DNA from: an uncultured Chroococcidiopsis sp.
Lineage (GTDB): Bacteria > Cyanobacteriota > Cyanobacteriia > Cyanobacteriales > Chroococcidiopsidaceae
DNA length: 64,000 bases
Assembly (NCBI GenBank): GCA_964248365.1
Contig: CAXTYC010000008.1
Location: forward strand, 86,492 to 150,491
Direction of reading: 5' to 3'
In this document: one piece after another, positions 25,870 to 64,000 of the stretch
Position numbering within the stretch: the first letter of the stretch is position 1
Layout: the number at the start of each line of letters is the position of its first letter
Made by a program: the position numbers and the translations under genes
The notes under the pieces: generated by a model
The model's database searches: none
Seen by the model: only the letters and a program-made list of their open reading frames with translations
What the model was told of the DNA's origin: nothing

Positions 25870-25945
25870 AAAAACCCTCCCAATATATAAAGGGAGGGCA
25901 GAGAAATTGAAATCAGGTGTGAGGCACAAACTAATTGTCTGTTAA
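25870..25945 (-). ncRNA. Candidate small RNA, copy A (CCUCACACC loop plus terminator)
   Basis: Homologous to 63768..63847; -10 TAAGCT at 25951-25956; terminator CCCTCCC..GGGAGGG-TTTTT. Confidence 0.6.
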
Positions 25946-25950
25946 TAAAT

Positions 25951-26003
25951 AGCTTAATGGGTGAATGTGACAGCAAAATGACAATCAAATGTCGATTGTG
26001 TCA
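25951..26003 (-). promoter_or_regulatory. OmpR/PhoB-type 11-bp direct-repeat box plus -10 element, copy A
   Basis: Minus strand TCGACAT-N4-TTGTCAT-N4-CTGTCAC-N10-TAAGCT. Confidence 0.6.
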
Positions 26004-26007
26004 TAAT

Positions 26008-26340
26008 TTAAATTGGTAAACGATTAATATCTTTGTTGCAGCCCATTACCAGCATAGCTGAACCTTTTTCTTGGCGCTTTCTGGGGTCAGGATTAATTTC
26101 AAACTTGCGATCGTGACTCACCGCCTGCAAGTTCAAACCATAGCGATTACGCAGTTGCACACTGATAGTTTTGCCGTGAAATTCGTCTGGGACAATGATT
26201 TCGACAATTCTATGATCTGGGTCGAGGTCAAATCGATCTAGGATAGATGGCTTGGTGAGCGATCGCGCTAGCGCACAACCCGCCTCATACTCTGGAAAAA
26301 CAACGCGCTCGGTTCCCACTCTTGTCAACAGCTTGCAGTG
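26008..26340 (-). pseudogene. 3' fragment of a TrkA/KtrA K+ uptake regulatory subunit
   Basis: HCKLLTRVGTERVVFPEYEAG...LRNRYGLNL (RCK C-terminal part); the NAD-binding N-terminus is absent. Confidence 0.85.
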
Positions 26341-26341
26341 G

Positions 26342-26661
26342 AATGGTTAATAGTAATAATGTGGTAATTGTAGCTACTTTAAAATCGAGAGAAAATCCCA
26401 TCCATTGTGGTTTTTTTGTAGGCGATCGCGTCCCCAAAGGTACATTTCCAAAATTACCTGCTCCCCAATTACCCCAAATATAATTAAAAGAGTTACTACA
26501 AGATTTAATAATATTGATGTTGACTAGCCAATCAAGCCATCTTTAAACAGACTAAAACCAGCATTATTCCATGAATTAATACTGGGATTTGTTAACCAAA
26601 GTCCTTGTTGTAAGCCATACTTGGGTGCGAAAACTAGTATAAGTAAGAAAATACCTGTAAT
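26342..26661 (-). pseudogene. Internal fragment of a TrkH/KtrB K+ transporter
   Basis: Manual translation: ITGIFLLILVF..GLW..SWNNAGFSLFKDGLIG*STS..LIIFGVIG, then a frameshift to FSLDFKVAT. Confidence 0.8.
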
Positions 26662-26753
26662 TTAAAAAAAATTTTCTCTCCCTTTGCTCCCCCATATCCC
26701 CTTTGCTCCCAATGTTTGCTACGCTAATTGCGGTTTGGCTGGACAGCTGTAAC

Positions 26754-61290: not shown

Positions 61291-63693
61291 GTGTCATTCG
61301 ATTCGATTTGGCTAATCGGTTCTAGTCGCAGTGGTAAGACCAGTCGCCTAGTCAAGCAGTTTTGTAGTTGGGTTCAAAGTGGAACGGGTAGGGGGCAGTT
61401 GGGCAAAAACGGCTTGCCACAACGCTTGTATATTCAGCAGAGCGAACCAGCAGTTTTGGTTTTGGCGGCAAATGATGATAATCGGCGCGAGTTGGCAGAT
61501 AAAATTGTGGCAGCAACAGGAGGGAAATATCCCATTCGCGCTAAGACACCTTTGGGATTTTTTCAGGATGAAGTCATTTTATTTTGGCCTTTGCTTATAC
61601 AGCTATTAAACCTGAAAGCACAGTTTCCGGTAAGGCTACGCCCAGAAACTGAGCAGGAATTAGCAACTTTCCTCTGGCGACAGGAGTTAGATGAAGAAAT
61701 TTTACGTTCACAAGGAGTGAGTGAATCTCGATGGGTGCGTCGCCTGTTGGACTTATTGCAACTGGCTGCTTTAAGCGGCACACCTGTCGAGGAGATTTCC
61801 AACGTTCTGGCTGCGTCTGGGGAAGGTGAGGGAGCAGGGGAGCAGGGGGGACTCGGAGTCCCCGTCCCCGAAGGGGATGGGGATTGGGGGGAGAGAGGGG
61901 CACAGGGGCAGAGGAGCAGGGGAGAATTCCCAATCCAAAATCGAAAATCTAAAATCGAAAATTCCCTCACCCCTCAAGAGTCACTCCTCTTAAAATGGCG
62001 TAATTGGTGTTGGGAGCAGGGATTTCTAACTTATGGAATTACTACTGAACTGTACTACCGTTACCTTCTGCCTAACCAATATTACCAGCAACATTTAGCT
62101 CGTTCTTATGGGTATGTATTGGCAGATGATGTAGATGATTATCCCGCGATCGCCCGCGATCTATTTGATTTACTTCTAGATCAAGGAGCAGTCGGGGCAT
62201 TTACTTATAATTCTGATGGAGCAGTTCGCTTGGGATTGGGAGCTGATCCCAATTACCTAGAAAAGCTATCAAAGCGCTGTCAAGTAGAAACTTTGAGCCA
62301 ACCACAGCTGTCTCTAGCAGATCAGTTGGCACAAGTAGTCGAATCAGTCTCCCAACCGATGGTACTGTTGGACTTACCCTCGTGTGTGCAAACACTGCAA
62401 ACCACTTCGAGGGCAGATTTATTGCGACAAACAGCTCTGTTGATTATTCAGGCGGTGCAGTCAAAACAGGTACAGCCGCAAGAAATAGCAGTAATTGCTC
62501 CTGGTTTAGATGCGATCGCGCGTTACACTTTGGTAGAAATTTTAACCAAGCAAGGAATTCCTGTCTCGTCCCTCAACGATCAACGTTCACTGACTAGTTC
62601 CCCAATTATCAGAGCCTTGCTTACCCTTCTTGCCCTAGTTTATCCAGGTTTGGGGCGGCTGGTAGATCGGGATGCAGTAGCTGAAATGTTGGTTGTACTT
62701 AGCACAAGGCGAGAGGTGAGAGGTACGAGGCAAGAGGGCGCTACGCGCAGGCAAGAGGAAAAAACGTCTACTGGTAGCATAGATCTGCCTTCAAACGAAA
62801 AATCTAACCTCTCGCAGATCGCCTCTAGCCTCTTGCCTAACATTGATCCAGTTCGGGCTGGCTTAATAGCAGATCACTGCTTTGAACCCCATCCCGATCG
62901 CCCCAATTTACTACCAGTGACAGTATACGATCGCTGGGATAGACTGGGATATACTGCAAGCTTGGCATATGAGCAGATATGGGAGTGGATAGAAGGACAG
63001 CGATCGCAACAACAACAGCGTTTACTTCCTAGTCCTATTTCGCTATTAGACAGAGCTATTCAAAGATTTTTGTGGAATGGTAGCAATTTACCTTATGACC
63101 AATTAGCAGCATTACGGGAATTATTAGAAACTGCCCAACATTACTGGGAAGTTGATACTCGCCTGCGCCAGATCGAGCATTACCAGAGTGATCTACATTC
63201 CCAGTTTCAGGCTGGTAACGAGGCTACTTCACCTCACGCAACTATTGCCTCTTTTATTCAACTGCTACGGCGTGGCACAATTACAGCCAATCCTTATCCT
63301 GTCCGTCCAATAGGTTTTGCTAGTCGGGCTGTCACTCTGGCGACTATTTTCCAATATCGTTCTAGTCGGCAATTTCATCGGTGGCAATTCTGGTTAGATG
63401 CTGGTTCACCCTTATGGTTAAGTGGTGGTGCAGCAACTTTGTTTGGTGCGCCATTGTTTTTACAGCATCGAATGAGTCAACCTTGGACAGCAGAAGACGA
63501 AATCAATGCTAATGAGCAAAGACTGGGACGAATATTGCGGGATTTACTAGGACGTGTGGGAGAGCGAGTTTACCTGTGTCATAGTGAGCTAGCCGTAAAT
63601 GGACAAGAGCAAACTGGACCTTTGTTGCCTTTGATTAATGCTGCACATCCGATAGCTTCTTCGCCTGCGCTTGCCCCTTCTGTAACGATTTGA
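61291..63693 (+). CDS. UvrD/AddB-like helicase-fold protein, probably degenerate
   Basis: N-terminal Walker A GSSRSGKT, VLADDVDDY, EIAVIAP. Confidence 0.65.
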   Translation: MSFDSIWLIGSSRSGKTSRLVKQFCSWVQSGTGRGQLGKNGLPQRLYIQQSEPAVLVLAANDDNRRELADKIVAATGGKYPIRAKTPLGFFQDEVILFWPLLIQLLNLKAQFPVRLRPETEQELATFLWRQELDEEILRSQGVSESRWVRRLLDLLQLAALSGTPVEEISNVLAASGEGEGAGEQGGLGVPVPEGDGDWGERGAQGQRSRGEFPIQNRKSKIENSLTPQESLLLKWRNWCWEQGFLTYGITTELYYRYLLPNQYYQQHLARSYGYVLADDVDDYPAIARDLFDLLLDQGAVGAFTYNSDGAVRLGLGADPNYLEKLSKRCQVETLSQPQLSLADQLAQVVESVSQPMVLLDLPSCVQTLQTTSRADLLRQTALLIIQAVQSKQVQPQEIAVIAPGLDAIARYTLVEILTKQGIPVSSLNDQRSLTSSPIIRALLTLLALVYPGLGRLVDRDAVAEMLVVLSTRREVRGTRQEGATRRQEEKTSTGSIDLPSNEKSNLSQIASSLLPNIDPVRAGLIADHCFEPHPDRPNLLPVTVYDRWDRLGYTASLAYEQIWEWIEGQRSQQQQRLLPSPISLLDRAIQRFLWNGSNLPYDQLAALRELLETAQHYWEVDTRLRQIEHYQSDLHSQFQAGNEATSPHATIASFIQLLRRGTITANPYPVRPIGFASRAVTLATIFQYRSSRQFHRWQFWLDAGSPLWLSGGAATLFGAPLFLQHRMSQPWTAEDEINANEQRLGRILRDLLGRVGERVYLCHSELAVNGQEQTGPLLPLINAAHPIASSPALAPSVTI

Positions 63694-63708
63694 GGTTTAC
63701 TCTTTTTG

Positions 63709-63761
63709 TGACACAATCGACATCTGATTGTCATTTTGCTGTCACACTCATTTATTAAGCT
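63709..63761 (+). promoter_or_regulatory. OmpR/PhoB-type direct-repeat box plus -10 element, copy B
   Basis: TCGACAT-N4-TTGTCAT-N4-CTGTCAC-N10-TAAGCT. Confidence 0.6.
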
Positions 63762-63767
63762 ATTTAT

Positions 63768-63847
63768 TAATAAATAATTAGTCTGCCCCTCACACCGCAT
63801 TCTAATTTGTACCTCCCTCCCTTCCCCAAATAAAGGGAGGGTTTTTT
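63768..63847 (+). ncRNA. Candidate small RNA, copy B
   Basis: Hairpin AATTAG..TGC-CCCTCACACC-GCA..CTAATT; terminator CCCTCCCTT..AAGGGAGGG-TTTTTT; homologous to 25870..25945. Confidence 0.6.
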
Positions 63848-63946
63848 ATCAAGTGGTTGCCACAAGAGCGAGCTATTAGCCCTTGGGACAAACCTGATCG
63901 ATAATTGGGCAAGCTTGGGCAAAAAGAGCGGTATCTTTTGTCATTA

Positions 63947-64000
63947 GTCAGAGTCGGAGGGAGAATCGCTTCTCCCACCTCTGTTTCAGAACCGGACTTG
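63947..64000 (-). mobile_element. 3' end (domains V-VI) of a group II intron, continuing off the right edge
   Basis: Minus strand CAAGTCCGGTTCTG (domain V 3' arm), then AGAGGTGGGAGAA-GCGA-TTCTCCCTCCGACTCT-GAC with a bulged A and AC terminus. Confidence 0.8.

What the first reader, a model, noticed from the sequence alone, without database searches (positions are those of the whole stretch)
25870..26003. Unannotated promoter + sRNA + terminator cassette present twice, 38 kb apart (copy A)
Seen: the reverse complement of 25870-26003 aligns with 63709-63847. Both read TGACACAATCGACATyTGATTGTCATTTTGCTGTCACA, then TAAGCTATTTATTAA, AATTAGT, CCTCACACC and CCCTCCC-loop-GGGAGGG-T-tract. Conservation concentrates in the box, -10, seed and terminator stem while loops diverge, which suggests function rather than a recent mobile repeat. 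Known: the cyanobacterial sRNA Yfr1 uses ACUCCUCACAC to pair with mRNAs, including envelope genes. Inference: a pair of ~75-nt sibling sRNAs with a Yfr1-like seed and a regulated promoter.
Basis: partly seen in the sequence, partly recalled or inferred. Interest (0 to 1): 0.75.

Follow-up and report, generated by a model that had tools for sequence, protein, structure and literature searches.

The report
Envelope-stress small RNAs sharing Yfr1's seed
These two short DNA units in a cyanobacterium are sister copies of a likely small regulatory RNA gene; they carry the core of the known Yfr1 RNA's pairing motif and share a repeated promoter motif with the htrA protease gene, so they likely form a stress-induced switch that would turn down porin and cell-wall genes.

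Summary
The duplication is real: 80.5% identity over 149 nt, two close copies only, so not a MITE. Both units are members of a cyanobacterial family of ~74-nt small-RNA genes with a 5' hairpin, an exposed CCUCACACC seed and a terminator. They are neither Rfam Yfr1 (the genome's Yfr1 lies elsewhere) nor Rfam Yfr10. A close relative in Nostoc PCC 7120 (TSS 2515196r) is already in print as a transcribed, uncharacterised 'Yfr10-like' RNA, so the RNA class is known.

Not found in my ten paper searches: the promoter is a tandem (T/C)G(T/C)CA repeat with an 11-nt period, ending 10 nt before the -10 box (40 of 42). The same repeat precedes htrA in 23 of 28 genomes and RND-efflux genes. Copy B likely sits just upstream of htrA, beside an Rre3/Hik10-like two-component system. 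The seed's complement lies at the starts of 5 of 9 porins and of murC.

Best model: an inducible, OmrA/B-like arm of the Yfr1 network. Against Rre3 as sole regulator: the boxes persist where it was not found, and purified Sll0649 did not bind the htrA promoter in one paper. Expression and targets are untested.

The parts
25967..26005 (-). Copy A operator: four half-sites in direct repeat, 11-nt period (26000-26005 degenerate, 25989-25995, 25978-25984, 25967-25973)
   Evidence: (joint-best score in the genome, 29.5)
25951..25956 (-). Copy A -10 element, 10 nt after the last half-site
   Evidence: the same spacing in 40 of 42 family promoters
25870..25943 (-). Copy A predicted small RNA, ~74 nt; start inferred from the -10 and from the mapped start of the Nostoc relative
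   Evidence: (71 bits; a training sequence of the model)
25916..25924 (-). Copy A seed, the 9-nt core of the Yfr1 motif; predicted to be partly occluded in this copy
25870..25899 (-). Copy A intrinsic terminator (hairpin plus T run)
26011..26340 (-). 3' remnant of a trkA gene directly upstream of copy A (a trkH remnant lies at 26410-26667); relatives have intact trkH-trkA followed by the same RNA gene
63707..63745 (+). Copy B operator: four half-sites in direct repeat, 11-nt period (63707-63712 degenerate, 63717-63723, 63728-63734, 63739-63745)
   Evidence: (29.5)
63756..63761 (+). Copy B -10 element, 10 nt after the last half-site
63769..63847 (+). Copy B predicted small RNA, ~79 nt
   Evidence: (71.4 bits; a training sequence)
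63788..63796 (+). Copy B seed, predicted fully unpaired in a loop
63815..63847 (+). Copy B intrinsic terminator
63903..63932 (+). Left arm of a palindromic element whose right arm is at the end of contig C12, upstream of htrA; the basis for placing copy B next to htrA
63946..64000 (-). End of a repeated element that breaks the assembly (same 55 nt at the ends of C8, C11, C29); looks like a group II intron 3' end from recalled features, no Rfam hit

Best explanation
The two units are sister copies of a likely trans-acting small RNA gene whose promoter is likely switched on by an OmpR/PhoB-type regulator, most likely the Rre3 homologue encoded near copy B, and whose 9-nt Yfr1-type seed is predicted to block translation of porin and cell-wall mRNAs during envelope or salt stress. 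Shown by sequence and calls: the duplication, the family, the conserved seed, the two hairpins, the repeat and its fixed spacing to the -10, the same repeat before htrA and RND-efflux genes, and the seed complement at porin and murC starts. Inferred: transcription, activation rather than repression, the identity of the regulator, the inducing signal, and repression of the targets. Step odds: functional small-RNA genes 0.9; repeat is an OmpR-type operator shared with htrA 0.8; Rre3 is a binder 0.55-0.6; envelope mRNAs are targets 0.65.
For: Family: a model built on the RNA part only finds four copies in this genome and matches in 28 of 28 family genomes (in 3 of the 28 the best hit is plain Yfr1). 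A 20-letter RNA motif finds 68 stretches in the species collection; every title that names a taxon is a cyanobacterium, and all 68 score with the model. Structure: terminator pairs covary; a 5' hairpin not given to the model is paired in 90% of cells against 24-51% for slid controls. Transcription of a relative: Nostoc TSS 2515196r, 159 reads, 19 homologues; its first 34 nt equal those of L107 (compared by eye). Operator: all 42 non-Yfr1 hits with full upstream DNA score 5.8-38.7 leaving their own genome out, while 11 Yfr1 loci score -19.7 to -5.5; 31 of the 42 were found without any promoter information. A TAnnnT box lies exactly 10 nt after the last half-site in 40 of 42. Regulon: the matrix, trained on RNA promoters only, scores 13 or more before htrA in 23 of 28 genomes, against 1 of 28 on the opposite strand, 2 of 560 shuffles and 0 of 29 regulator promoters. 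In this genome only 1 of 6 Deg protease genes has it, the one beside an OmpR-type regulator and kinase. That regulator matches Synechocystis Rre3 in cysteine spacing, length and C-terminus, and htrA is reported as the only gene under Hik10-Rre3 in salt and hyperosmotic stress (PMC3195437). The RNA gene lies 2-4 kb from this regulator in 7 of the 18 family genomes where the regulator was found. The three genomes where the regulator was not found all lack the htrA box. Targets: the seed complement lies at the start of 14 of 4523 gene models, 9 of them envelope genes, including 5 of 9 porins; one porin ranks 2nd (A) and 5th (B) of 4352. These gene classes are validated Yfr1 targets in Nostoc (PMC6974561).
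Against: No expression data for this organism. The regulator was not found in eight family genomes whose RNA genes keep intact boxes (G001-G003, G006, G010, G017, G021, G023), nor in 8 of 50 further genomes, four of which have box scores of 14.9-29.5. There the boxes also persist before RND-efflux genes. In heterocyst-forming relatives only 25 of 68 promoters score 13 or more, and many Scytonema/Brasilonema copies have lost the box although the regulator is present. Purified Sll0649 (Rre3) did not bind the Synechocystis htrA promoter by EMSA or DAP-chip (1.05-fold), although the protein fell in the mutant; the passages read do not mention phosphorylation (PMC5559466). The Rre3 assignment rests on three features from a primer table, not on an alignment. 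The count of 14 start-region sites is close to that of control octamers (4-11), so only the gene classes are informative, and those sites may exist for Yfr1 alone. A and B both depart from the family consensus just before the seed, and A's seed is predicted partly paired (unpaired probability about 0.3 at 5 of 9 positions). Six of the seven syntenic genomes belong to two related genera, so they are not independent.
Confidence: 0.55

Rival explanations
1. The same small RNAs with the same seed, but the repeats are read mainly by another OmpR-type regulator present in all these genomes (for example the SrrA-like, NblR-like, CusR-like or NrrA protein), alone or alongside Rre3, so the inducing signal is different or broader.
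For: Boxes before the RNA genes and before RND-efflux and permease genes persist in genomes where Rre3 was not found. Those genomes hold 17-23 OmpR-type domains, some 77-95% identical to regulators of this genome. Negative EMSA for Sll0649 on the htrA promoter. NrrA is recalled to use a similar half-site; the paper was not held.
Against: The best non-RNA sites in this genome cluster around the Rre3-like locus. The htrA box is missing in the 3 genomes that lack the regulator. In G004 the regulator, a boxed Deg gene and a weak RNA match lie on one 371-kb contig. The recalled NrrA spacer (8 nt) differs from the 6 nt seen here. The names of the other regulators are recalled, not from a call.
Confidence: 0.25
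2. The RNAs act mainly by titrating Yfr2-family RNAs, or buffer Yfr1, rather than repressing mRNAs directly; or copy A is a decaying duplicate and only B works.
For: The genome has three Yfr2-like genes, and A and B are predicted to pair with them at -16 to -26 kcal/mol. Yfr2 binds Yfr1 and Yfr10 in Prochlorococcus (PMC6778093). A sits behind a broken trkH-trkA operon and its seed is predicted partly occluded.
Against: A and B pair with two of the three Yfr2-like RNAs more weakly than Yfr1 does by 2-10 kcal/mol, and with all three more weakly. A keeps a top-scoring operator, the -10 spacing, the seed core and the terminator. Sponging and mRNA repression do not exclude each other.
Confidence: 0.13
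3. A non-functional or mobile repeat (MITE, terminator duplication, or a cis-acting leader) with no RNA product of its own.
For: Copy B lies next to a palindromic element and a repeated mobile element. In G038 the boxed promoter and a Yfr1 motif lie in the leader of an htrA-like gene without an obvious terminator.
Against: Only two close copies, no terminal repeats or target duplication seen in the flanks, a conserved seed with covarying hairpins in 92 distinct sequences, a mapped start in Nostoc, and no gene directly downstream of A on the same strand.
Confidence: 0.05

Closest known systems
'Yfr10-like' RNA from TSS 2515196r of Nostoc sp. PCC 7120 (PMC6778093 passages; PMC4734099 Table S3 row 129)
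   Same: Same 5' end and seed as the family consensus, similar length, terminator; its first 34 nt equal those of family member L107. Almost certainly the same family.
   Different: In print only as a mapped start with 19 blastn homologues; no promoter motif, regulator or targets in what I read. I did not hold the PCC 7120 locus itself, so its promoter was not scored. A and B deviate from it just before the seed.
Yfr1 (Rfam RF01116)
   Same: Seed core, two-hairpin layout in most family members, and predicted targets (porins, murC, LCP protein, TolC-like).
   Different: A and B do not score with RF01116 and lack the full 11-mer; the genome's Yfr1 is at C16:8240-8304. Yfr1 is reported as near-constitutive and its promoters lack the repeat (0 of 11). 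The family's 5' hairpin runs up to the seed, leaving 9 nt free, and the genes are multicopy at variable loci.
Yfr10 of Prochlorococcus (Rfam RF02362)
   Same: A second, variable RNA with the Yfr1 motif; motif in a loop on a stem, as predicted for copies A and B.
   Different: A and B give no match; paralogues C and D score 21-24.5 bits against a cut-off of 43. Most family members fold like Yfr1, not Yfr10.
Hik10-Rre3 (Slr0533-Sll0649) system of Synechocystis PCC 6803
   Same: The regulator near copy B matches Rre3 in cysteine spacing, length and C-terminus; htrA is the shared downstream gene.
   Different: No binding motif or small-RNA target found in the papers seen; here regulator, kinase and htrA are neighbours; direct binding to htrA was negative in one study.
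OmrA/OmrB and MicF of enterobacteria; pho-box promoters (all recalled, from no call)
   Same: Paralogous small RNAs activated by an OmpR-family regulator that repress outer-membrane proteins; tandem half-sites with an 11-bp period replacing the -35 element about 10 bp before the -10.
   Different: No sequence relationship; analogy of logic only.

Membership tests
Yfr1 (RF01116) | Score above the Rfam gathering cut-off (38 bits) | tested here: not met
   no match at A or B; the genome's Yfr1 scores 61.3 bits elsewhere
Yfr1 (RF01116) | Invariant 11-mer ACUCCUCACAC | tested here: not met
   A and B have only the core; 5 of 92 distinct family sequences have the exact 11-mer
Yfr1 (RF01116) | Motif unpaired between two stem-loops | tested here: inconclusive
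   Met by most of the family; A and B are predicted to take an alternative fold with the seed in a loop
Yfr1 (RF01116) | Location between guaB and trxA | tested here: not met
   A follows a trkA remnant, B follows an unannotated 800-aa gene; a thioredoxin neighbour appears only at plain Yfr1 hits
Yfr10 (RF02362) | Score above the gathering cut-off (43 bits) | tested here: not met
   no match at A or B up to E 10
'Yfr10-like' RNAs in the loose sense of PMC6778093 | A small RNA other than Yfr1 that carries the Yfr1 motif, with unconserved synteny | tested here: met
   Seed core present, separate Yfr1 present, several neighbourhoods; the paper's own Nostoc example belongs to the same family
'Yfr10-like' RNAs in the loose sense of PMC6778093 | Discrete transcript detected | not testable with these tools
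   One search listed no RNA holder; start mapped only for the Nostoc relative
Hik10-Rre3 regulon | Genome encodes an Rre3 orthologue | tested here: met
   three matching features; no direct alignment to Sll0649
Hik10-Rre3 regulon | Shares an operator with htrA | tested here: met
Hik10-Rre3 regulon | Operator occurs only where the regulator occurs | tested here: not met
Hik10-Rre3 regulon | Direct binding and regulator-dependent induction | not testable with these tools
   Needs EMSA and mutants; one published EMSA on htrA was negative
MITE | High copy number with terminal inverted repeats and target duplications | tested here: not met
   two close copies; none seen in the flanks by inspection

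The most novel reading that the evidence does not exclude
Cyanobacteria have an unrecognised envelope-stress regulon in which the Hik10-Rre3 system, through a tandem TGTCA operator, co-induces HtrA, RND efflux and a multicopy family of Yfr1-seed small RNAs. The constitutive Yfr1 and this inducible family would share one seed to set porin and peptidoglycan output, and seed-variant paralogues would be acquiring new targets. This would supply both the missing Rre3 binding motif and the RNA arm of a Cpx/OmrAB-like response in this phylum.
Probability: 0.45. Interest if true: 0.7.

Novelty: new variant of a known kind. Interest (0 to 1): 0.52.

Why it matters
Yfr1 is the one near-universal cyanobacterial small RNA and is reported as nearly constitutive, which left open how its envelope targets respond to stress. 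Extra RNAs with its motif were noted in 2019 as a loose, unconserved set. This work shows that many form one family with a shared operator that also precedes htrA. That gives a candidate binding site for Rre3, whose only reported salt-stress target is htrA, and a direct test in Nostoc PCC 7120, where the relative is transcribed and genetics are routine.

Tried and rejected
Rfam: no family at either copy at gathering or E-value thresholds. MITE: rejected on copy number. Single palindromic or CRP-like operator: rejected; the conserved signal is a direct repeat. Autoregulation of the regulator: 0 of 29 promoters carry the repeat. Coding: no ORF of useful length seen in A or B by inspection; not tested with a coding-potential program. 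Clean co-occurrence of box and regulator: not obtained. Sequencing runs: no RNA holder listed, which is no evidence either way. Group II intron identity of the element at the window end: Rfam gave 0 matches. NrrA motif: the paper was not held by DOI or PMC id, so the comparison is from recall. SyR5 of Synechocystis: passages show it upstream of sll0737 and unchanged in three conditions; its promoter was not examined. Figure S7 of PMC6778093 is a picture, so its alignment could not be read and may bear on how the Nostoc RNA was grouped. The 17-bp match of paralogue D to gpmI is exact in only 2 of the 7 genomes with the D-type seed. A consensus promoter scan found no sigma-70 site on the RNA strand of copy A, only two on the opposite strand at chance level. 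Most weak model hits (108 of 151 genomes at E 0.05) were not examined and are not counted as members. Earlier scan notes: nothing by sequence, place or the second word search.

Full report
Observation. The reverse complement of 25870-26003 aligns with 63709-63847. In the 5.58-Mb, 102-contig genome, blastn gives 80.5% over 149 nt (E 8e-31), and no other non-self hit is better than E 0.19. Both units are intergenic. A follows remnants of trkH and trkA and faces a prephenate dehydrogenase gene tail to tail; B follows an 800-aa gene with no Pfam or NCBIfam hit. Each folds a terminator better than 200 of 200 shuffles. Profile searches add two more paralogues, C (C2:22056-22126) and D (C1:88356-88427, variant seed), and a weak fifth, E (C12, about 114955-115030; 14.5 bits). 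The host is a cyanobacterium; its genus-mates carry the same allele as two records titled Chroococcidiopsis.

What the RNA is. No Rfam family matches A or B. The genome's own Yfr1 scores 61.3 bits at C16:8240-8304, and the Yfr10 model gives only sub-threshold hits at C and D. I aligned 11 copies without their promoters and built model R1. It matches 28 of 28 family genomes at E 0.05 and 108 of 151 order genomes; most weak hits were not examined. Of 55 hits read, 11 were plain Yfr1 and kept as controls, 2 were dropped for missing upstream DNA, and 42 were analysed. A 20-letter RNA motif found 68 stretches in the species collection, mostly heterocyst-forming genera; a few repeat earlier hits. 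In 92 distinct sequences the seed core occurs in 82 and the exact Yfr1 11-mer in 5; this is biased, because 68 were picked by a seed-containing pattern. The terminator covaries (80.8% paired, score 0.54 against 0.31 shuffled; alignment fitted to it). A 7-bp 5' hairpin that the model did not contain is paired in 90.0% of cells (shuffles 86.8%, slid controls 24-51%), with 15 double changes against 4.9, though only 3 of 7 pairs show one, which 294 of 500 shuffles reach. So the family has Yfr1's layout with a 9-nt free seed. A and B are its most deviant members: both are predicted to present the seed in a loop, fully open in B and partly paired in A. They group as sisters (96/87, bootstrap not settled), although A occupies the trkA-linked site of relatives G001-G004 and G006 and B the htrA-linked site of G005; conversion or replacement is the likely reason.

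What is in print. PMC6778093 (abstract, introduction and passages; supplement legends) names RNAs with the Yfr1 motif besides Yfr1, including Nostoc TSS 2515196r, and calls them unconserved outside the motif. PMC4734099 (parts 2-3 of the text and Table S3 rows) lists 2515196r with 159 reads and 19 homologues. Its first 34 nt equal those of L107, and its start aligns with 25943 in A and 63769 in B. PMC2190773 (first part) defines Yfr1. PMC6974561 (parts 1-2) validates porins, murC, mraY, conR and others as Yfr1 targets and calls Yfr1 near-constitutive. PMC12873609 (passages) has no mention of Yfr10 or htrA. Ten searches showed no listing that links these RNAs to an operator or to Rre3; most listings were seen as title and abstract start only, and subscription papers are not covered.

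The operator. All 42 promoters carry tandem (T/C)G(T/C)CA half-sites at an 11-nt period, scoring 5.8-38.7 with their own genome left out; the 11 Yfr1 loci score -19.7 to -5.5 and shuffles have a 99th percentile of 2.6. Eleven of the 42 were training copies found with promoter-containing queries; 31 are independent. A TAnnnT box follows the last half-site at exactly 10 nt in 40 of 42. From recall, this is the geometry of pho-box promoters, where an OmpR/PhoB-type activator replaces the -35 element. Among the 68 motif hits, 25 score 13 or more against 0 of 395 control windows; others are degenerate or have lost the box.

The regulon. Scanning this genome, the top sites are A, B and C, then three on contig C12: after a histidine kinase and before an RRM gene, before unit E, and before htrA. 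Between them lies an OmpR-type regulator with its kinase (best profiles PhoB and MtrA, below their cut-offs). The regulator has cysteines 36 residues apart, 235 residues and a C-terminus that match the table and reverse primer for Synechocystis Rre3 in PMC4361706 (passages). Hik10-Rre3 is a salt and hyperosmotic system (PMC3264485 passages; PMC3514855 passages) whose only reported target there is htrA (PMC3195437 passage). The matrix scores 13 or more before the best htrA match in 23 of 28 genomes (2 of 30 too short), against 1 of 28 opposite strands, 2 of 560 shuffles and 0 of 29 regulator promoters. Only 1 of 6 Deg genes here has it, and 9 of 3738 gene upstream regions reach 13. Four of 20 further Deg upstream regions score 13 or more, and in G038 the boxed promoter is followed by a Yfr1 motif in the leader of the Deg gene. 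In G005 the order is RNA gene, htrA, kinase, regulator. Here C8 ends 144 nt after copy B in a repeated element; the flanks at the C8 and C12 ends are two arms of one palindrome that is intact on C4, and they pair at -49.7 kcal/mol against -16 to -33 for the other five pairings. So B likely lies a few hundred bases plus one insertion upstream of htrA.

Against Rre3 alone. The regulator was found in 14 of 14 genomes outside the family that have a boxed RNA and in 9 of 23 others chosen for lacking one, but not in 9 of 27 family genomes, eight of which keep boxed RNAs; the kinase was not found in 5 of 5 of these tested. It was found in 42 of 50 motif-hit genomes (50 of the 68 searched), with no clean match to box score. 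In five genomes without it, two-box sites (35 against 15 for the reversed pattern) still precede the RNA genes, RND-efflux adaptors (identified from the translations by eye) and a permease, and the orthologues in this genome have sites too. PMC5559466 (passages) reports no binding of purified Sll0649 to the htrA promoter. A second reader is therefore plausible.

Targets. The octamer complementary to the seed lies at the start of 14 of 4523 crude gene models; control octamers give 4-11. The 14 include five OprB porins, MurC, an LCP protein, a TolC-like protein and a glycosyltransferase, and 5 of 9 porins carry it. By duplex energy without accessibility, one porin ranks 2nd for A and 5th for B, and murC 12th and 9th, of 4352. 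Pairing covers or abuts the ribosome-binding region, so repression is the likely effect. Three Yfr2-like genes are present and are predicted to pair with A and B more weakly than with Yfr1.

Verdict. A real pair of small-RNA genes, the closest two of a multicopy Yfr1-seed family whose Nostoc member is already listed but uncharacterised. The new element is the shared operator with htrA and efflux genes and the link to a Hik10-Rre3-like locus. Works like OmrA/OmrB (recalled analogy); not a member of Rfam Yfr1 or Yfr10. New variant of a known kind; interest 0.52.

Noticed in passing
window 63946-64000; G000 ends of C8, C11, C29 and of C12, C91: A repeated element breaks the assembly. Its ends look like those of a group II intron (recalled features; Rfam gave no match), and at C8/C12 it sits in the loop of a palindromic element that is intact at C4:94573-94724.
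   Followed up: partly
window 26011-26667: trkA is reduced to its 3' half and trkH to an internal fragment; tblastn found no other trkA or trkH match in the assembly, so this potassium transporter seems lost.
   Followed up: partly
G000:C1:88356-88427(-) and C34:38430-38442: Paralogue D has a variant seed that can form a 17-bp duplex with the early coding region of gpmI, top of 4352 at -33 kcal/mol; the 13-nt core site is exact in gpmI of only G000 and G005.
   Followed up: partly
L092:8955-9033(-) and L225:7716-7791(+): A fifth boxed unit with terminator and a diverged seed, beside an mprF-like locus and near the two-component system, conserved in position in G005.
   Followed up: partly
G000:C12:123041-123596: A strong operator just after the kinase gene precedes an RRM RNA-binding protein gene; a box after the kinase is also seen in G004 and G005. 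An RNA-binding protein in the same regulon as the small RNAs could be a chaperone.
   Followed up: partly
L363 / L369 (G038) and L367 (G035): A boxed promoter followed by a Yfr1 motif or a variant inside the leader of an htrA-like gene, possibly a leader-derived form of the RNA.
   Followed up: no
L047 (G011); L051, L236, L237, L242 (G012): Two family members in tandem with different seeds in G011; several copies on small contigs near transposase-like genes in G012, suggesting spread on plasmids.
   Followed up: no
L309, L310 (G001, G003): A further boxed unit with a variant seed after a deg-dnaJ pair, below the model's threshold.
   Followed up: no
G000:C20, near 48012(-): A seed-core match in the leader of a gene, about 35 nt before its start codon, without a terminator.
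   Followed up: no
window 61291-63693: An 800-aa gene upstream of copy B with no Pfam or NCBIfam match at E 0.001.
   Followed up: no
L107:1778-2393: A CRISPR array (nine CRISPR-DR33 repeats) about 570 nt downstream of the family member in the Nostoc minutum record.
   Followed up: no
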